This document shows positions 4,810 to 11,546 of a stretch of 11,546 nucleotides of DNA, one piece after another. Made by a program: the position numbers and the translations under genes. The notes under the pieces are model-generated. The model did no database searches, was not told the DNA's origin, and saw only the letters and a program-made list of their open reading frames with translations. The stretch lies in UHGV virus genome UHGV-1974939; one strand, 5' to 3'. Origin of the DNA: a virus. Each line of letters starts with the position of its first letter. The stretch's first letter is position 1.

Positions 4810-5388
4810 ATGGCCATAAAAGGTCTTGAGCAGGCCGTTGAAAACCTCAGCCGTATCAGCAAAACGGCGGTGCCTGGTGCGTCAGCAATGGCCATTAACC
4901 GCGTTGCTTCATCCGCGATATCGCAGTCGGCGGCACAGGTTGCCCGTGAGACAAAGGTACGCCGGAAACTGGTAAAGGAAAGGGCCAGGCTGAAAAGGGC
5001 CACGGTCAAAAATCCGCAGGCCAGAATCAGGGTTAACCGGGGGGATTTGCCCGTAATCAAGCTGGGGAATGCGCGGGTTGTCCTGTCCCGCCGCAGGCGT
5101 CGTAAAAAGGGGCAGCGTTCAGCCCTGAAAGGTGGCGGCAGCGTGCTTGTGGTGGGAAACCGTCGTATTCCCGGCGCGTTTATTCAGCAACTGAAAAATG
5201 GCCGCTGGCATGTCATGCAGCGTGTGGCCGGGAAAAACCGTTACCCCATTGATGTGGTGAAAATCCCGATGGCGGTGCCGCTGACCACGGCGTTTAAACA
5301 GAATATTGAACGGATACGGCGTGAACGTCTTCCGAAAGAGCTGGGCTATGCGCTGCAGCATCAACTGAGAATGGTAATAAAGCGATGA
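4810..5388 (+). CDS. Z: Tail completion protein Z
   Basis: ATG 4810 preceded by GGGGG at 4801-4805. The 192-aa basic product (MAIKGLEQAVENLSRISKTAVPG...) is recognisable as lambda gpZ. Stop TGA 5386-5388 overlaps the U start. Confidence 0.92.
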   Translation: MAIKGLEQAVENLSRISKTAVPGASAMAINRVASSAISQSAAQVARETKVRRKLVKERARLKRATVKNPQARIRVNRGDLPVIKLGNARVVLSRRRRRKKGQRSALKGGGSVLVVGNRRIPGAFIQQLKNGRWHVMQRVAGKNRYPIDVVKIPMAVPLTTAFKQNIERIRRERLPKELGYALQHQLRMVIKR

Positions 5389-5780
5389 AACATACTGAAC
5401 TCCGTGCAGCCGTACTGGATGCACTGGAGAAGCATGACACCGGGGCGACGCTTTTTGATGGTCGCCCCGCTGTTTTTGATGAGGCGGATTTTCCGGCAGT
5501 TGCCGTTTATCTCACCGGCGCTGAATACACGGGCGAAGAGCTGGACAGCGATACCTGGCAGGCGGAGCTGCATATTGAAGTTTTCCTGCCTGCTCAGGTG
5601 CCGGATTCAGAGCTGGATGCGTGGATGGAGTCCCGGATTTATCCGGTGATGAGCGATATCCCGGCACTGTCAGATTTGATCACCAGTATGGTGGCCAGTG
5701 GCTATGACTACCGGCGCGACGATGATGCGGGCCTGTGGAGTTCAGCCGATCTGACTTATGTCATTACCTATGAAATGTGA
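5385..5780 (+). CDS. U: Tail terminator protein U
   Basis: ATG 5385 overlaps the Z stop as ATGA. The 131-aa product ([31 protein letters not shown]...) is recognisable as lambda gpU. Confidence 0.95.
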
Positions 5781-5787
5781 GGACGCT

Positions 5788-6528
5788 ATGCCTGTACCAA
5801 ATCCTGTAATGCCGGTGAAAGGTGCCGGGACCACCCTGTGGGTTTATAAGGGGAGCGGTGACCCTTATGCGAATCCGCTTTCAGACGTTGACTGGTCGCG
5901 TCTGGCAAAAGTTAAAGACCTGACGCCCGGCGAACTGACCGCTGAGTCCTATGACGACAGCTATCTCGATGATGAAGATGCGGACTGGACCGCGACCGGG
6001 CAGGGGCAGAAATCTGCCGGAGATACCAGCTTCACGCTGGCGTGGATGCCCGGAGAGCAGGGGCAGCAGGCGCTGCTGGCGTGGTTTAATGAAGGTGATA
6101 CCCGTGCCTATAAAATCCGCTTCCCGAACGGCACAGTCGATGTGTTCCGCGGCTGGGTCAGCAGCATCGGTAAGGCGGTGACAGCGAAGGAAGTGATCAC
6201 CCGCACGGTGAAAGTCACCAACGTGGGACGTCCGTCGATGGCAGAAGATCGCAGCACGGTAACAGCGGCAACCGGTATGACCGTGACGCCTGCCAGCACC
6301 TCGGTGGTGAAAGGGCAGAGCACCACGCTGACCGTGGCATTCCAGCCGGAGGGCGCAACCGACAAGAGCTTCCGTGCGGTGTCTGCGGATAAAACAAAAG
6401 CCACCGTGTCGGTCAGTGGTATGACCATCACCGTGAACGGTGTTGCTGCAGGCAAGGTCAACATTCCGGTCGTATCCGGTAATGGTGAACTTGCTGCTGT
6501 TGCAGAAATCACCGTCACCGCCAGTTAA
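5788..6528 (+). CDS. V: Major tail tube protein V with a C-terminal Ig-like (Big_2-type) domain
   Basis: ORF-track frame 5758..6528; ATG 5788 is preceded by GAGGA at 5779-5783. The product [30 protein letters not shown]... is recognisable as lambda gpV, 246 aa. The C-terminal ~85 residues ([64 protein letters not shown]) have the alternating beta-strand pattern of a bacterial Ig-like domain. Confidence 0.93.
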
Positions 6529-6543
6529 TCCGGAGAGTCAGCG

Positions 6544-6966
6544 ATGTTCCTGAAAACCGAATCATTTGAACATAACGGTGTGACCGTCACGCTTTCTGAA
6601 CTGTCAGCCCTGCAGCGCATTGAGCATCTCGCCCTGATGAAACGGCAGGCAGAACAGGCGGAGTCAGACAGCAACCGGAAGTTTACTGTGGAAGACGCCA
6701 TCAGAACCGGCGCGTTTCTGGTGGCGATGTCCCTGTGGCATAACCATCCGCAGAAGACGCAGATGCCGTCCATGAATGAAGCCGTTAAACAGATTGAGCA
6801 GGAAGTGCTTACCACCTGGCCCACGGAGGCAATTTCTCATGCTGAAAACGTGGTGTACCGGCTGTCCGGTATGTATGAGTTTGTGGTGAATAATGCCCCT
6901 GAACAGACAGAGGACGCCAGGCCAGCAGAGCCTGTTTCTGCGGGAAAGTGTTCGACGGTGAGCTGA
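6544..6966 (+). CDS. G: Tail assembly chaperone G
   Basis: ATG 6544 preceded by GGAGAG at 6531-6536. The 140-aa product (MFLKTESFEHNGVTVTLSELSALQRIEHLALMKRQ...) is recognisable as lambda gpG. Stop is TGA 6964-6966. Confidence 0.93.
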   Translation: MFLKTESFEHNGVTVTLSELSALQRIEHLALMKRQAEQAESDSNRKFTVEDAIRTGAFLVAMSLWHNHPQKTQMPSMNEAVKQIEQEVLTTWPTEAISHAENVVYRLSGMYEFVVNNAPEQTEDARPAEPVSAGKCSTVS

Positions 6967-7382
6967 GTTTTGCCCTGAAACTGGCGCGTGAGATGGGGCG
7001 ACCCGACTGGCGCGCCATGCTTGCCGGGATGTCATCCACGGAGTATGCCGACTGGCACCGCTTTTACAGTACCCATTATTTTCATGATTTTCTGCTGGAT
7101 ATGCACTTTTCCGGGCTGACGTACACCGTGCTCAGCCTGTTTTTCAGCGATCCGGATATGCATCCGCTGGATTTCAGTCTGCTGAACCGGCGCGAGGCTG
7201 ACGAAGAGCCTGAAGATGATGTGCTGATGCAGAAAGCGGCAGGGCTTGCCGGAGGCGTTCGTTTTGGCCCGGACGGGAATGAAGTTATCCCCACTTCCCC
7301 GGATGTGGCGGACATGACGGAGGATGACGTAATGCTGATGACAGTATCAGAAGGGATCGCAGGAGGAGTCCGGTATGGCTGA
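6544..7382 (+). CDS. T: Tail assembly chaperone G-T fusion, made by programmed -1 ribosomal frameshift at 6942-6948
   Basis: The -1 frame relative to G is open from 6948 to TGA 7380-7382 (ORF track 6948..7382, product FDGELSFALKLAREMGRPDWRAMLAGMSSTEYADWHRFY...) and has no independent start with a ribosome-binding site. A G GGA AAG heptamer sits in the G zero frame seven codons before the G stop. This is the textbook lambda G/G-T arrangement. Confidence 0.85.
6942..6948 (+). other. Slippery heptanucleotide G_GGA_AAG for the G to G-T -1 frameshift
   Basis: The sequence gggaaag at 6942-6948 has GGA and AAG as zero-frame codons of G (codon starts 6943 and 6946), an X_XXY_YYZ pattern. The -1 frame continues in-frame into the T ORF. 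Confidence 0.85.
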
Positions 7383-9957
7383 ACCGGTAGGCGATCTGGT
7401 CGTTGATTTAAGTCTGGATGCGGCCAGATTTGACGAGCAGATGGCCAGAGTCAGGCGTCATTTTTCCGGTACGGAAAGTGATGCGAAAAAAACAGCGGCA
7501 GTCGTTGAACAGTCGCTGAGCCGACAGGCGCTGGCTGCACAGAAAGCGGGGATTTCCGTCGGGCAGTATAACGCCGCCATGCGTATGCTGCCTGCACAGT
7601 TCACCGACGTGGCCACGCAGCTTGCAGGCGGGCAAAGTCCGTGGCTGATCCTGCTGCAACAGGGGGGTCAGGTGAAGGACTCCTTCGGCGGGATGATCCC
7701 CATGTTCCGGGGGCTTGCCGGTGCGATCACCCTGCCGATGGTGGGGGCTACCTCGCTGGCGGTGGCGACCGGAGCGCTGGCGTATGCCTGGTATCAGGGC
7801 AACTCAACCCTGTCCGATTTCAACAAAACGCTGGTCCTTTCCGGTAATCAGGCAGGACTGACGGCAGATCGTATGCTGGTCCTGTCCAGAGCCGGGCAGG
7901 CGGCAGGGCTGACGTTTAACCAGACCAGCGAGTCACTCAGCGCACTGGTTAAGGCGGGAGTAAGCGGTGAGGCTCAGATTGCATCCATCAGCCAGAGTGT
8001 GGCGCGTTTCTCCTCTGCATCCGGCGTGGAGGTGGACAAGGTCGCTGAAGCCTTCGGGAAGCTGACCACAGACCCGACGTCGGGGCTGACGGCGATGGCA
8101 CGCCAGTTCCATAACGTGACGGCGGAGCAGATTGCGTATGTCGCTCAGTTGCAGCGTTCCGGCGATGAGGCAGGGGCATTGCAGGCGGCGAACGAGGCCG
8201 CAACGAAAGGGTTTGATGACCAGACCCGCCGCCTGAAAGAGAACATGGGCACGCTGGAGACCTGGGCAGACAGGACAGCGCGGGCATTCAAATCCATGTG
8301 GGATGCGGTGCTGGATATTGGTCGTCCTGATACCGCGCAGGAGATGCTGATTAAGGCAGAGGCTGCGTTTAAGAAAGCAGACGACATCTGGAATCTGCGC
8401 AAGGATGATTATTTTGTTAACGATGAAGCGCGGGCGCGTTACTGGGATGATCGTGAAAAGGCCCGTCTTGCGCTTGAAGCCGCCCGAAAGAAGGCTGAGC
8501 AGCAGAGTCAACAGGACAAAAATGCGCAGCAGCAGAGCGATACCGAAGCGTCACGGCTGAAATATACCGAAGAGGCGCAGAAGGCTTACGAACGGCTGCA
8601 GACGCCGCTGGAGAAATATACCGCCCGTCAGGAAGAACTGAACAAGGCACTGAAAGACGGGAAAATCCTGCAGGCGGATTACAACACGCTGATGGCGGCG
8701 GCGAAAAAGGATTATGAAGCGACGCTGAAAAAGCCGAAACAGTCCGGCGTGAAGGTGTCTGCGGGAGAGCGTCAGGAAGATCGAGCACATGCAGCTCTTC
8801 TTGCGTTACAAGCTGAACTAAAAATGCTTGAGCAGCATAGCGGAGCGAATGAAAAAATCAGCCAGCAGCGCCGAGATTTGTGGACAGCCGAAAGCCAGTA
8901 TGCCGTGTTGCATGAGAAGTTGTCTGCTGACGTTCTGGATGGACAGAAGAAATCGCTAAGTATCGAGGAAAAATCTCTTCTTGCTCATGAAAAAGAGACG
9001 CTGGAGTACAAACGTCAGCTGGCTGCACTTGGCGATAAGGTTGAACACCAGAAACGGCTGAACGAACTGGTACAGCAGGCGGATAAATTCGCACAGCAAC
9101 AACGGGCAAAACGGGCAGCCATTGAGGCGAAAAGCCGGGGACTGACTGACCGGCAGGCAGCGCGGGAAGCCATGGAACAGCGCCTGAAGGAACAGTATGG
9201 CGATAATCCGCTGGCGCTGAATAACGTCATGTCAGAGCAGAAAAAGACCTGGGCGGCTGAAGACCAGCTTCGCGGGAGCTGGATGGCAGGCCTGAAGTCC
9301 GGCTGGAGTGAGTGGGAAGAGAGCGCCACGGACAGTATGTCGCAGGTAAAAAGTGCAGCCACGCAGACCTTTGATGGTATTGCACAGAATATGGCGGCGA
9401 TGCTGACCGGCAGTGAGCAGAACTGGCGCAGCTTCACCCGTTCCGTGCTGTCCATGATGACAGAAATTCTGCTTAAGCAGGCAATGGTGGGGATTGTCGG
9501 GAGTATCGGCAGCGCCATTGGCGGGGCTGTTGGTGGCGGCGCATCCGCGTCAGGCGGTACAGCCATTCAGGCCGCTGCGGCGAAATTCCATTTTGCAACC
9601 GGAGGATTTACGGGAACCGGCGGCAAATATGAGCCAGCGGGGATTGTTCACCGTGGTGAATTTGTCTTCACGAAGGAGGCAACCAGCCGGATTGGCGTGG
9701 GAAATCTCTACCGGCTGATGCGCGGCTATGCCACCGGCGGTTATGTCGGTGGCACCGGAAGTCCGGCGCAAATGCGGCGTTCAGAGGGTATCAGGTTTGA
9801 GCAGAACAACAACGTGGTGATTCAGAACGACGGTACGAATGGTCTGCCAGGTCCACAGATGATGAAGGCAGTGTATGACATGGCCCGCAAGGGTGCCCGT
9901 GATGAAATTCAGACACAGATGCGTGATGGTGGCCTGTTCTCCGGAGGTGGACGATGA
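7375..9957 (+). CDS. H: Tail tape measure protein H
   Basis: ATG 7375 preceded by AGGAGGAG at 7361-7368 and overlapping the T stop by 8 nt. The 860-aa product is recognisable as lambda gpH. It has an N-terminal hydrophobic segment (GLAGAITLPMVGATSLAVATGALAYAW), a long charged Ala/Gln/Lys/Glu-rich helical centre and a Gly-rich C-terminal region (GSIGSAIGGAVGGGASASGG). Confidence 0.95.
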   Translation: MAEPVGDLVVDLSLDAARFDEQMARVRRHFSGTESDAKKTAAVVEQSLSRQALAAQKAGISVGQYNAAMRMLPAQFTDVATQLAGGQSPWLILLQQGGQVKDSFGGMIPMFRGLAGAITLPMVGATSLAVATGALAYAWYQGNSTLSDFNKTLVLSGNQAGLTADRMLVLSRAGQAAGLTFNQTSESLSALVKAGVSGEAQIASISQSVARFSSASGVEVDKVAEAFGKLTTDPTSGLTAMARQFHNVTAEQIAYVAQLQRSGDEAGALQAANEAATKGFDDQTRRLKENMGTLETWADRTARAFKSMWDAVLDIGRPDTAQEMLIKAEAAFKKADDIWNLRKDDYFVNDEARARYWDDREKARLALEAARKKAEQQSQQDKNAQQQSDTEASRLKYTEEAQKAYERLQTPLEKYTARQEELNKALKDGKILQADYNTLMAAAKKDYEATLKKPKQSGVKVSAGERQEDRAHAALLALQAELKMLEQHSGANEKISQQRRDLWTAESQYAVLHEKLSADVLDGQKKSLSIEEKSLLAHEKETLEYKRQLAALGDKVEHQKRLNELVQQADKFAQQQRAKRAAIEAKSRGLTDRQAAREAMEQRLKEQYGDNPLALNNVMSEQKKTWAAEDQLRGSWMAGLKSGWSEWEESATDSMSQVKSAATQTFDGIAQNMAAMLTGSEQNWRSFTRSVLSMMTEILLKQAMVGIVGSIGSAIGGAVGGGASASGGTAIQAAAAKFHFATGGFTGTGGKYEPAGIVHRGEFVFTKEATSRIGVGNLYRLMRGYATGGYVGGTGSPAQMRRSEGIRFEQNNNVVIQNDGTNGLPGPQMMKAVYDMARKGARDEIQTQMRDGGLFSGGGR

Positions 9958-10283
9958 AAACCTTCCGCTGGAAAGTGAAACCCGGTATGGATGTGGCTTC
10001 GGCCCCTTCTGTAAGAAAGGTGCGCTTTGGTGATGGCTATTCCCAGCGAGCGCCTGCCGGGCTGAATGCCAACCTGAAAACGTACAGCGTGACGCTTTCT
10101 GTCCCCCGTGAGGAGGCCACGGTACTGGAGTCGTTTCTGGAAGAGCACGGGGGCTGGAAAGCCTTTCTGTGGACGCCGCCTTATGAGTGGCGGCAGATAA
10201 AGGTGACCTGCGCAAAATGGTCGTCGCGGGTCAGTATGCTGCGTGTTGAGTTCAGCGCAGAGTTTGAACAGGTGGTGAACTGA
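9954..10283 (+). CDS. M: Tail tip assembly protein M
   Basis: ATG 9954 overlaps the H stop as ATGA and is preceded by GGAGGTGG at 9943-9950. The 109-aa product (MKTFRWKVKPGMDVASAPSVRKVRFGDGYSQRAP...) is recognisable as lambda gpM. Confidence 0.93.
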   Translation: MKTFRWKVKPGMDVASAPSVRKVRFGDGYSQRAPAGLNANLKTYSVTLSVPREEATVLESFLEEHGGWKAFLWTPPYEWRQIKVTCAKWSSRVSMLRVEFSAEFEQVVN

Positions 10284-10981
10284 TGCAGGATATCCGGCAG
10301 GAAACACTGAATGAATGCACCCGTGCGGAGCAGTCGGCCAGCGTGGTGCTCTGGGAAATCGACCTGACAGAGGTCGGTGGAGAACGTTATTTTTTCTGTA
10401 ATGAGCTGAACGAAAAAGGTGAGCCGGTCACCTGGCAGGGGCGACAGTATCAGCCGTATCCCATTCAGGGGAGTGGTTTTGAACTGAATGGCAAAGGCAC
10501 CAGTACGCGCCCCACGCTGACGGTTTCTAACCTGTACGGTATGGTCACCGGGATGGCGGAAGATCTGCAGAGTCTGGTCGGCGGAACGGTGGTCAGGCGT
10601 AAGGTTTACGCCCGTTTTCTGGATGCGGTGAACTTCGTCAACGGAAACAGTGACGCCGATCCGGAGCAGGAGGTGATCAGCCGCTGGCGCATTGAGCAGT
10701 GCAGCGAATTGAGCGCGGTGAGTGCCTCTTTTGTACTGTCCACGCCGACGGAAACGGACGGCGCTGTTTTTCCGGGACGTATCATGCTGGCCAACACCTG
10801 CACCTGGACCTATCGCGGCGATGAGTGCGGTTATCACGGTCCGGCGGTCGCGGATGAATATGACCAGCCAACGTCCGATATCACGAAGGATAAATGCAGC
10901 AAATGCCTGAGTGGCTGTAAGTTTCGCAATAACGTCGGCAACTTTGGCGGCTTCCTTTCCATTAACAAACTTTCGCAGTAA
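10283..10981 (+). CDS. L: Tail tip protein L with a C-terminal cysteine cluster (Fe-S binding type)
   Basis: ATG 10283 overlaps the M stop in TGATG. The 232-aa product (MQDIRQETLNECTRAEQSASVVLWEIDLTEVGGERYFFCNEL...) is recognisable as lambda gpL. Five Cys lie in the last ~60 residues (TCTW, DECGY, KCSKC, SGCK). Confidence 0.95.
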   Translation: MQDIRQETLNECTRAEQSASVVLWEIDLTEVGGERYFFCNELNEKGEPVTWQGRQYQPYPIQGSGFELNGKGTSTRPTLTVSNLYGMVTGMAEDLQSLVGGTVVRRKVYARFLDAVNFVNGNSDADPEQEVISRWRIEQCSELSAVSASFVLSTPTETDGAVFPGRIMLANTCTWTYRGDECGYHGPAVADEYDQPTSDITKDKCSKCLSGCKFRNNVGNFGGFLSINKLSQ

Positions 10982-10986
10982 ATCCC

Positions 10987-11546
10987 ATGACAGAGACAGA
11001 ATCAGCGATTCTGGCGCACGCCCGGCGATGTGCGCCAGCGGAGTCGTGCGGCTTCGTGGTGAGAACGCCGGAAGGGGAAAGATATTTTCCCTGCGTGAAT
11101 ATCTCCGGTGAGCCGGAGGATTATTTCCGGATGGCTCCGGAGGACTGGCTGCAGGCAGAAATGCAGGGTGAGATTGTGGCGCTGGTCCACAGCCACCCCG
11201 GTGGTCTGCCCTGGCTGAGTGAGGCTGACCGGCGGCTGCAGGTGCAGAGTGATTTGCCGTGGTGGCTGGTCTGCCGGAGGACGATTCATAAGTTCCGCTG
11301 TGTGCCGCATCTCACTGGGCGGCGCTTTGAACACGGGGTGACGGACTGTTACACGCTGTTCCGGGATGCTTATCATCTGGCGGGGATTGAGATGCCGGAT
11401 TTTCATCGCGAGGATGACTGGTGGCGTCACGGTCAGAATCTCTATCTGGATAATCTGGAGGCCACAGGGCTGTATCAGGTGCCGTTGTCATCAGCACAAC
11501 CGGGCGATGTGCTGCTGTGCTGTTTTGGTTCATCGGTGCCGAATCA
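10987..11546 (+). CDS. K: Tail tip assembly protein K (JAMM/MPN plus NlpC/P60 two-domain protein), 3'-truncated by the window edge
   Basis: Not in the ORF track because the frame has no stop inside the window. Hand translation from ATG 10987 in frame 1 gives MTETESAILAHARRCAPAESCGFVVRTPEGERYFPCVNISGEPEDYFRMAPEDWLQAEMQGEIVALVHSHPGGLPWLSEADRRLQVQ...GVTDCYTLFRDAYHLAGIEMPDF..., open to nt 11546. It contains an H-x-H-x7-S-x2-D JAMM signature at 11188-11229 and follows L by 5 nt, as K does in lambda. The start could instead be ATG 11131, which has GGAGGA upstream. Confidence 0.85.
   Translation, partial: MTETESAILAHARRCAPAESCGFVVRTPEGERYFPCVNISGEPEDYFRMAPEDWLQAEMQGEIVALVHSHPGGLPWLSEADRRLQVQSDLPWWLVCRRTIHKFRCVPHLTGRRFEHGVTDCYTLFRDAYHLAGIEMPDFHREDDWWRHGQNLYLDNLEATGLYQVPLSSAQPGDVLLCCFGSSVPN

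What the first reader, a model, noticed from the sequence alone, without database searches (positions are those of the whole stretch)
6942..7382. Programmed -1 frameshift joining G to T at G_GGA_AAG
The T reading frame (6948..7382) has no start codon with a ribosome-binding site and overlaps the last seven codons of G in the -1 frame. A canonical slippery heptamer sits exactly where the two frames meet. This is the conserved tail-assembly-chaperone frameshift of long-tailed phages, which yields G and a low-abundance G-T fusion. I did not see an obvious strong downstream stimulatory hairpin, consistent with the low-efficiency lambda case.
Basis: partly seen in the sequence, partly recalled or inferred. 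Interest (0 to 1): 0.5.

Follow-up and report, generated by a model that had tools for sequence, protein, structure and literature searches.

The report
Lambda G/GT tail-chaperone frameshift site
This is the well-known programmed -1 ribosomal frameshift of phage lambda, in a close lambda relative: a few percent of ribosomes slip at G_GGA_AAG and make a G-T fusion protein needed for tail assembly, so the finding is correct but ordinary.

Summary
GGGAAAG lies at 6942-6948 and reads G_GGA_AAG in the frame of G (6544-6966). The T frame (6948-7382) is the -1 frame. The window is a lambda-like phage or prophage: 98.5% identical to lambda 9567-10667 here and 96.6% over all 11.5 kb. The slip site and its surroundings are identical to the experimentally characterised lambda G/GT site.

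New comparative evidence agrees:
- T is in the -1 frame of G in all 58 relatives examined.
- A shift-prone motif ending in A_AAG or A_AAA sits at the homologous place in each.
- In the most compact relatives the two frames are both open for only 10-13 nt, essentially the heptamer.
- The -1-frame peptide just after the site (xFxGELxFxLKLARE[M/F]GRPDWR) is conserved, although most relatives have no start codon there.
- The nominal GTG "start" at 6948 lacks a usable Shine-Dalgarno sequence and is lost in natural variants.
- Substitutions just 3' of the site are silent in T and replacing in G.

A first hint of a conserved downstream RNA structure failed an independent test on 35 further sequences. 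This fits the published view that no stimulator is involved.

Verdict: already known, interpretation supported, low interest.

The parts
6532..6537 (+). Shine-Dalgarno sequence (GGAGAG) of gene G. It serves both G and the G-T fusion.
   Evidence: Anti-SD duplex of -6.6 kcal/mol at a spacing of 7 nt from ATG 6544. The homologous site is annotated as an RBS in Lambda imm21.
6544..6966 (+). Gene G, the tail assembly (tape-measure) chaperone: 140 aa, 0 frame.
   Evidence: ORF. Pfam PF06894 Phage_TAC_2, E 1.2e-61, covering residues 1-125. Three nucleotide differences from lambda G, one of them replacing (G126R).
6906..6966 (+). Zone where the G frame and the -1 (T) frame are both open (61 nt). The shift must occur here.
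   Evidence: In relatives this zone shrinks to 10-13 nt around the heptamer (L156-L158).
6942..6948 (+). Slippery heptamer G_GGA_AAG (Gly134-Lys135 of G), the site of the tandem -1 slip to GGG_AAA.
   Evidence: It is the only in-phase X_XXY_YYZ in G. It is invariant in 80 of 80 close relatives although neighbouring bases vary. It is identical to the lambda site.
6948..7382 (+). T segment, -1 frame: 144 codons plus stop. It is translated only as the C-terminal part of the 279-aa G-T fusion, join(6544..6948, 6948..7382).
   Evidence: Pfam PF06223 Phage_tail_T, E 1.9e-14. PHROG 32165, a 290-position profile, matches G at positions 1-142 and T at 140-285, so it is a family of fused G-T proteins. 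The fusion is 279 aa and 31.3 kDa.
5758..6528 (+). Context: major tail tube gene V, immediately upstream. The annotated start of relatives corresponds to 5788.
   Evidence: PF16461 Phage_TTP_12, E 2.6e-70, plus Big_2. Annotations.
7375..9957 (+). Context: tape measure gene H, immediately downstream. Its ATG overlaps the end of T (ATGGCTGA), and its own strong SD (AGGAGGAG, 7361-7368) lies inside T.
   Evidence: PF06791 TMP_2, E 8e-70, and PF09718. Anti-SD duplex of -10.3 kcal/mol.

Best explanation
This is the phage-lambda-type programmed -1 ribosomal frameshift that makes two tail assembly chaperones from one translation start.

Ribosomes start at the G ATG (6544). Most of them read through to the TGA at 6964-6966 and release gpG (140 aa). 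A small fraction behaves differently, about 4% in lambda by published measurement; this was not measured here. With tRNA-Gly on GGA and tRNA-Lys on AAG, these ribosomes slip back one base and re-pair on GGG and AAA. They then read GTG (6948-6950) as Val and continue in the T frame to 7382, producing a 279-aa G-T fusion (...PVSAGK|VFDGELSF...).

The slip is driven by the heptamer itself. E. coli's single tRNA-Lys (anticodon mnm5s2UUU) pairs poorly with AAG. No downstream RNA stimulator is needed.

By the published lambda work, both products bind the tape measure protein H through the G part. The rare T part recruits the tail tube protein V. Neither protein ends up in the virion.

Shown here: the sequence anatomy, near-identity to lambda, family membership, and comparative conservation of the frame relation, the shift motif and the -1 peptide. 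Taken from the literature or inferred: the efficiency, the tRNA mechanism and the assembly role.
For: - Identity to lambda. The segment 6400-7500 is 98.5% identical to lambda 9567-10667 with no indels. The whole window is 96.6% identical to lambda. The 22 bases before the heptamer and the 64 after it match lambda exactly.
- Gene order. G = PF06894, T = PF06223, V (tail tube) upstream, H (tape measure) downstream.
- Fusion family. PHROG 32165 is a fused G-T family matched by both halves. The phi80 record annotates a joined 'gpG-T' CDS, and the N15 and phi80 records annotate a 'slippery sequence for -1 translational frameshift' at the homologous place.
- Frame relation. T is in the -1 frame of G in 12 of 12 diverse phages and 46 of 46 loci drawn from a one-genome-per-species collection.
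- Shift motif at the same position in each: G_GGA_AAG, A_AAA_AAG, G_GAA_AAG (the majority), G_GGA_AAA, G_GCA_AAA or C_CCA_AAA.
- Overlap size. The double-open zone is only 10-13 nt in L156-L158, which pins the site.
- Conserved -1 peptide. The peptide starting right at the slip site is conserved (xFxGELxFxLKLARE[M/F]GRPDWRAML), while the first start-like codon in that frame lies 15-70 nt further downstream in the 11 more distant phage relatives checked.
- The GTG at 6948 is not a credible start. It has no usable SD. It is replaced by GTC or GCA in the PhiR12_2 and Stx clades and by GTT or GCG in 3 close relatives.
- Selection on the T frame. Five kinds of substitution were seen at 6949-6959 among lambda-type sequences. 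Four are synonymous in T and all five are replacing in G (codon assignment).
- Literature. Lambda makes gpG and gpGT by -1 frameshifting at G_GGA_AAG. The 0 frame is kept about 96% of the time, giving a molar ratio of 30:1. [quoted passage not shown]
Against: Nothing in the sequence argues against it. The limits are these:
- No protein or reporter data exist for this particular variant.
- It differs from lambda at 6919 (G126R, GGG to the rare codon AGG) and at 6924, which lie 23 and 18 nt upstream of the heptamer. An effect on efficiency is untested.
- The bare heptamer is not statistically rare in the window.
- Many database records still annotate T as a separate CDS starting at the GTG. That is an annotation habit, not evidence.
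Confidence: 0.97

Rival explanations
1. T is an independent gene. Ribosomes initiate at GTG 6948, or reinitiate at ATG 6993 (Met16 of T) after terminating at the G stop, and no frameshift is involved.
For: A GTG exists at 6948 and an in-frame ATG at 6993. Many records, including RefSeq lambda and PGAP prophage annotations, list T as a stand-alone CDS. One record even marks GGG at the homologous 6942-6944 as an RBS.
Against: - The best anti-SD pairing upstream of 6948 is -4.3 kcal/mol, and it ends 1 nt from the start. This is no better than a third of random 20-mers.
- The GTG is lost in the PhiR12_2 and Stx clades and in 3 of 80 close relatives.
- Met16 is Phe in most of the family, where the motif reads LAREF.
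- The 15-23 residues upstream of the first possible start are conserved as protein in relatives.
- The T frame is always -1 to G, with overlaps as short as 10 nt that contain a shift motif. Independent genes would not need this.
- Published lambda work identifies the product as a G-T fusion.
Confidence: 0.02
2. The frame change is made at the RNA level. RNA polymerase slips on the A run of GGGAAAG and makes a fraction of transcripts with one base more or fewer. These encode the fusion in one frame.
For: Transcriptional slippage is a known alternative route to trans-frame products and can coexist with ribosomal shifting (PMC5009743). Stx-type relatives carry a longer run, AAAAAAG.
Against: - The run here is only three A's and three G's. 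From general knowledge, productive slippage needs much longer homopolymers.
- The conserved feature across the family is the codon phase of the motif (X_XXY_YYZ or N_NNA_AAG in the G frame), which matters to ribosomes and not to polymerase.
- Frameshift level in lambda responds to tRNA-Lys modification (PMC3296357).
Confidence: 0.01
3. The frameshift is ribosomal but is helped by a downstream mRNA structure. A long-range helix starts 8 nt 3' of the heptamer (about 6957-6963 with 7019-7025) and encloses a GC-rich hairpin (about 6982-6996 with 7003-7017).
For: - The 100 nt after the site fold to -40.6 kcal/mol, z = -1.99, with 7 of 200 shuffles as good.
- On 13 relatives, RNAalifold finds the same two helices.
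- On those sequences the pair counts exceed all 500 shuffles: 6 pairs with double changes against 2.5, and a covariation score of 0.213 against 0.091.
Against: - That structure was derived from the same 13 sequences it was scored on.
- With the structure fixed and tested on 35 further distinct relatives, only 75% of cells pair (71% when shuffled).
- In that test, pairs with double changes number 6 against 6.7 shuffled (444 of 500 as high), and further pair types 19 against 18.4 (246 of 500).
- A +1 slide gives an equal covariation score, 0.165 against 0.150. The window's own MFE structure does no better.
- The first 50 nt fold worse than shuffles, z = +1.99.
- The RNAalifold covariation term is only -0.21 kcal/mol.
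- The GC-rich arms encode the conserved peptides LAR and WRA, which explains their conservation.
- The review literature states that no stimulator is involved.
- Rfam has no match.
Confidence: 0.04

Closest known systems
Bacteriophage lambda G / G-T programmed -1 frameshift (Levin, Hendrix & Casjens 1993; Xu, Hendrix & Duda 2004, 2013, 2014)
   Same: Same genes, same order (V-G-T-H), same heptamer G_GGA_AAG at the same codons (Gly134-Lys135), the same 61-nt double-open zone, and the same 140-aa and 279-aa products. Nucleotide identity is 98.5% over 1.1 kb with no indels.
   Different: Only point differences: G126R plus two silent changes in G, V48F and A116T plus four silent changes in T. The window is a lambda relative (96.6% overall), not lambda itself. 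For example, its tape measure is 7 aa longer.
N15 / phi80 / mEp043-type and enterobacterial prophage G-T frameshift at G_GAA_AAG
   Same: Homologous G and T proteins (T 55-62% identical), the same -1 relation, the shift motif at the homologous position a few codons before the G stop, and the same A-site A_AAG Lys codon. The motif is annotated as a slippery sequence in the N15 and phi80 records.
   Different: The P-site codon is GAA (Glu), which would re-pair on GGA with a G:U at the middle position. That heptamer is therefore non-canonical, whereas the window has the canonical X_XXY_YYZ form. T is shorter and lacks the second AGGVR[F/Y]G copy.
Stx-converting lambdoid phages, G-T frameshift at A_AAA_AAG
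   Same: Homologous G and T (T 63-70% identical), the same architecture and position.
   Different: Heptamer A_AAA_AAG (Lys-Lys) instead of G_GGA_AAG, and no GTG at the junction.
E. coli dnaX -1 frameshift (A_AAA_AAG, gamma subunit)
   Same: Tandem -1 slippage on a heptamer ending in A_AAG, exploiting E. coli tRNA-Lys (PMC5009743).
   Different: dnaX uses an upstream Shine-Dalgarno-like stimulator and a downstream stem-loop and reaches very high efficiency. Here no conserved stimulator is detectable and the published efficiency is about 4%. The product here is an extension, not a truncation.

Membership tests
Conserved tail-assembly-chaperone (G/GT-type) programmed frameshift of long-tailed phages | Two overlapping ORFs lie between the major tail (tube) gene and the tape measure gene. 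| tested here: met
   V (PF16461 tail tube) 5758-6528, G 6544-6966, T 6948-7382, H (PF06791 tape measure) 7375-9957.
Conserved tail-assembly-chaperone (G/GT-type) programmed frameshift of long-tailed phages | The downstream ORF is in a shifted frame (-1 here) relative to the upstream one and overlaps its 3' end. | tested here: met
   -1 frame, double-open zone 6906-6966. The same relation holds in 12 of 12 phage relatives and 46 of 46 genome loci.
Conserved tail-assembly-chaperone (G/GT-type) programmed frameshift of long-tailed phages | A shift-prone (slippery) sequence lies in the correct codon phase inside the overlap. | tested here: met
   G_GGA_AAG at 6942-6948, the only in-phase X_XXY_YYZ in G. 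G_GGA_AAG is listed as highly shift-prone in E. coli (PMC5009743).
Conserved tail-assembly-chaperone (G/GT-type) programmed frameshift of long-tailed phages | The downstream ORF has no translation start of its own. | tested here: met
   The GTG at 6948 has no usable SD and is not conserved. The conserved -1 peptide precedes the first start-like codon in relatives. This is computational evidence only.
Conserved tail-assembly-chaperone (G/GT-type) programmed frameshift of long-tailed phages | Both a short and a long (fusion) protein are made, at a high short:long ratio. | not testable with these tools
   Published for lambda, whose site is identical: about 96% to 4%, a 30:1 ratio. Not measured for this variant.
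Lambda gpG / gpT protein families | Sequence membership in Pfam PF06894 (Phage_TAC_2) and PF06223 (Phage_tail_T) above the gathering thresholds. | tested here: met
   206.5 bits against a cut-off of 27, and 54.3 bits against 25.9. PHROGs 42, 39 and the fused family 32165 also match.
Stimulator-dependent -1 PRF (dnaX / IS / retroviral type) | A conserved RNA hairpin or pseudoknot lies 5-9 nt 3' of the heptamer. | tested here: not met
   The first 50 nt are unstructured. The candidate structure is not supported on 35 independent relatives. No Rfam family matches.

The most novel reading that the evidence does not exclude
In the lambda-type clade only, the stable GC-rich hairpin (about 6982-7017), nested in a helix that begins 8 nt after the heptamer, tunes the G:GT ratio. 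Alternatively, the window-specific rare AGG codon at 6919, 23 nt upstream, tunes it. In either case the 'stimulator-free' lambda frameshift would have a weak, lineage-specific modulator. My data do not support this across the family, but they cannot exclude a clade-restricted effect.
Probability: 0.04. Interest if true: 0.3.

Novelty: already known. Interest (0 to 1): 0.07.

Why it matters
The G/GT frameshift sets the roughly 30:1 ratio of two chaperones that coat the tape measure protein and recruit the tail tube protein. Lambda cannot build tails correctly if the ratio is disturbed. For this window it matters mainly for annotation. T should be annotated as the -1 frameshift extension of G, join(6544..6948, 6948..7382), and not as a free-standing gene. 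Many records, including RefSeq lambda and PGAP prophage calls, still annotate it as free-standing. Nothing new about the biology follows from this instance.

Tried and rejected
- **Downstream stimulatory structure.** The single-sequence fold and the RNAalifold and pair counts on 13 relatives looked promising. I fixed the structure and tested it on 35 new, distinct sequences. The support vanished, so I rejected it as an artefact of deriving and scoring a structure on the same related, protein-constrained sequences.
- **Independent start for T.** The anti-SD calculation and the loss of the start codon in relatives reject it.
- **Other slippery sites.** There are none in the overlap or anywhere else in G.
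- **Solved structures.** A sequence search of the GT fusion against the PDB gave no hit.
- **Rfam.** The scan of the window gave no hit.
- **Viral-contig scan with T.** It returned only 98-99% identical relatives. These were useful for micro-variation but not for deep conservation. The phage tblastn and the genome-contig scan with a T alignment supplied the diversity.
- **Xu et al. 2013 (PMC3762263).** The paper is not held. Statements about Levin 1993 and Xu 2004-2014 therefore rest on how open-access reviews and papers describe them.
- **Structure prediction and the large protein searches.** Not run, because they could not change the verdict.

Full report
**1. What is in the sequence**

Positions 6940-6949 read gcGGGAAAGt. 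Gene G runs from ATG 6544 to TGA 6964-6966 and encodes 140 aa. In its frame the codons are GCG GGA AAG. The heptamer at 6942-6948 is therefore G_GGA_AAG in the X_XXY_YYZ phase that tandem -1 slippage requires.

The ORF 6948-7382 (144 codons) is in the -1 frame. That frame is already open from 6906, so both frames are open over 6906-6966.

A -1 slip on the heptamer gives ...PVSAGK|VFDGELSF..., a fusion of 279 aa and 31.3 kDa. G alone is 15.7 kDa.

**2. Is it more than chance?**

The heptamer as a bare string is not unusual. It occurs 3 times on both strands against 1.5 expected, and 38 of 200 shuffles give at least 3. Its placement is unusual:
- Among 3533 codons of the window's long forward ORFs there are 8 in-phase X_XXY_YYZ heptamers. 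Two of them lie upstream of the real start of E.
- About 0.04 would be expected in the 19-codon double-open zone.
- The G heptamer is the only one in G.
- It is the only one followed by a long -1 ORF (144 codons; the others have at most 59).
- It sits 6 codons before the 0-frame stop.

**3. Identity of the region**

The 1.1 kb around the site is 98.5% identical to lambda 9567-10667 with no indels. The whole 11.5-kb window is 96.6% identical to lambda from B to K. The best E. coli complete-genome prophage is 97.4% identical. The module, at varying identity, occurs in 4600 of 5426 complete E. coli genomes.

The protein families fit:
- G is Pfam Phage_TAC_2, 'lambda tail assembly chaperone protein G' (E 1e-61).
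- T is Phage_tail_T (E 2e-14).
- The upstream gene is the tail tube protein V, and the downstream gene is the tape measure H.
- PHROG 32165 is a 290-position family of fused proteins. G matches its first half and T its second half.

Against lambda, G carries G126R plus two silent changes, and T carries V48F and A116T plus four silent changes. From 6925 to 7012, a stretch that includes the heptamer, the two sequences are identical.

**4. Comparative tests done here**

I collected 12 diverse phages by tblastn: lambda, PhiR12_2, three kinds of Stx phage, N15, mEp043, phi80, Fels-1, mEp460 and Vibrio HY01. I then collected 46 further loci from a one-genome-per-species collection, using an alignment of T proteins as the query.

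*Frame and motif.* T is in the -1 frame of G in every one of these relatives. Each has a shift-prone motif in phase at the homologous position, a few codons before the G stop:
- G_GGA_AAG: the lambda type, E. albertii and Edwardsiella.
- A_AAA_AAG: the Stx phages.
- G_GAA_AAG: the majority. The N15 and phi80 records annotate it as the slippery sequence.
- G_GGA_AAA, G_GCA_AAA and C_CCA_AAA in the remaining loci.

The constant element is the A-site Lys codon preceded by A. In three loci both frames are open over only 10-13 nt, essentially the heptamer, and this maps the shift site.

*Conserved peptide.* The peptide read in the -1 frame directly from the site is conserved across the family (xFxGELxFxLKLARE[M/F]GRPDWRAML). 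In the 11 more distant phage relatives the first start-like codon of that frame lies 15-70 nt further downstream.

*Close relatives.* Among 80 close relatives the heptamer never varies, although bases on both sides do. Five kinds of substitution occur at 6949-6959 in lambda-type sequences. Four are silent in T and all five are replacing in G. Three of them destroy the GTG at 6948. So directly after the heptamer, selection acts on the T frame, and the nominal start codon is dispensable.

*Ribosome-binding site.* The GTG has no usable ribosome-binding site. Its best anti-SD pairing is -4.3 kcal/mol and ends 1 nt from the codon, which is no better than a third of random 20-mers. G scores -6.6 and H -10.3 at a spacing of 7.

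**5. Mechanism**

The best explanation is the published one for lambda:
- tRNA-Gly and tRNA-Lys slip together from GGA_AAG to GGG_AAA in about 4% of passages.
- The slip is favoured because E. coli's single tRNA-Lys (mnm5s2UUU) pairs weakly with AAG.
- The result is gpG and gpGT at about 30:1.
- Both bind the tape measure through the G part, and the T part recruits the tube protein.
- Neither protein is in the virion.
- The ratio is critical and responds to tRNA thiolation.

I did not measure the efficiency, the tRNA mechanism or the assembly role. They are taken from the literature for a site of identical sequence.

**6. Downstream structure: a lead that failed**

The 50 nt after the site fold worse than shuffles, z = +2. 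The 100 nt after the site fold to -40.6 kcal/mol, z = -2. In that fold an outer helix starts 8 nt after the heptamer and encloses a GC-rich hairpin.

RNAalifold on 13 relatives found the same helices. Pair counts on those sequences exceeded all 500 shuffles. But that structure came from the same sequences it was scored on.

I then fixed the structure and tested it on 35 new, distinct relatives:
- 75% of cells pair, against 71% when shuffled.
- Pairs with double changes number 6, against 6.7 shuffled (444 of 500 shuffles as high).
- A one-column slide scores as well as the true register.
- The window's own MFE structure fares no better.

The GC-rich arms encode the conserved peptides LAR and WRA, which explains their conservation. 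Rfam has no match. I conclude that there is no conserved 3' stimulator. [quoted passage not shown]

**7. Rivals**

- Independent initiation of T, at GTG 6948 or at ATG 6993 after termination of G, is contradicted by the missing SD, by the non-conservation of both codons (Met16 is Phe in most relatives) and by the conserved upstream peptide.
- Transcriptional slippage is unlikely on runs of three bases. It also does not explain why the codon phase of the motif is conserved.
- A structure-assisted variant of the ribosomal mechanism is not supported (section 6).

**8. Comparison with what is known, and verdict**

Every computationally testable defining feature of the G/GT tail-chaperone frameshift family is met: position between the tube and tape measure genes, the -1 overlap, an in-phase slippery heptamer, no own start for T, and Pfam membership. 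Only protein-level production could not be tested here.

This is the textbook lambda case in a 98.5%-identical relative. The practical consequence is for annotation: T should be written as join(6544..6948, 6948..7382), whereas RefSeq lambda and PGAP still list a separate T CDS.

Noticed in passing
L096-L109, L120, L126, L143 (genome-contig loci): Draft 'genomes' of unrelated organisms (Neobacillus, Oceanobacillus, Kitasatospora, Chromatium, Leeuwenhoekiella, Shewanella, Tardiphaga, Psychrobacter and others) contain contigs about 98% identical to lambda G-T. For those whose names carry a coverage value, it is mostly about 1x. This looks like lambda DNA contamination or spike-in carried into public assemblies, not real prophages.
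   Followed up: no
window 7248-7268 and 7359-7379 (T residues 101-107 and 138-144): The C-terminal part of T carries two copies of the motif AGGVR[F/Y]G. The N15, phi80, Fels-1 and Vibrio-type T proteins end after the first copy (alignment A2). The second copy lies at the very end of T, where H's ATG (7375) overlaps the end of T; H's Shine-Dalgarno sequence (7361-7368) lies within it. This could be an internal duplication in the lambda and Stx lineage. Its function is unknown.
   Followed up: partly
window 7375-9957 (H), residues about 470-600 and 790-830: The tape measure is 860 aa against 853 in lambda. There is a 7-aa insertion near residue 515 inside a locally divergent patch, and a second divergent patch lies near the C-terminus. 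The rest is nearly identical (93% overall). This is a mosaic pattern. Because tape measure length sets tail length, a marginally longer tail would be predicted.
   Followed up: partly
window 6919-6921: Codon 126 of G is the rare Arg codon AGG (G126R). None of the 80 close relatives has it; they have GGG or GGT. It lies in the variable linker after the Pfam G domain, 23 nt upstream of the heptamer. No effect is known.
   Followed up: no
window 10987-11546: An ORF starting at ATG 10987, 6 nt after the end of L, runs off the window end. Mechanical ORF listing therefore missed it. It corresponds to the full-length K protein, which PGAP annotates as a 'C40 family peptidase' in a 97%-identical prophage.
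   Followed up: partly
window 5154-5160 (Z) and 9699-9705 (H): Two other in-phase heptamers of the G_GGA_AAN type occur: G_GGA_AAC in Z and G_GGA_AAT in H. Their -1 frames stay open for only 30-31 codons. They are probably chance and would give truncated products. Conservation was not examined.
   Followed up: no
L084, L087, L090, L092-L094 and L159: Public annotations of the T homologue are inconsistent. T is started at internal ATG or GTG codons that cut off 5-23 conserved residues, or it is listed as a stand-alone CDS. Only phi80 has a joined G-T CDS, and only phi80 and N15 mark the slippery sequence.
   Followed up: yes
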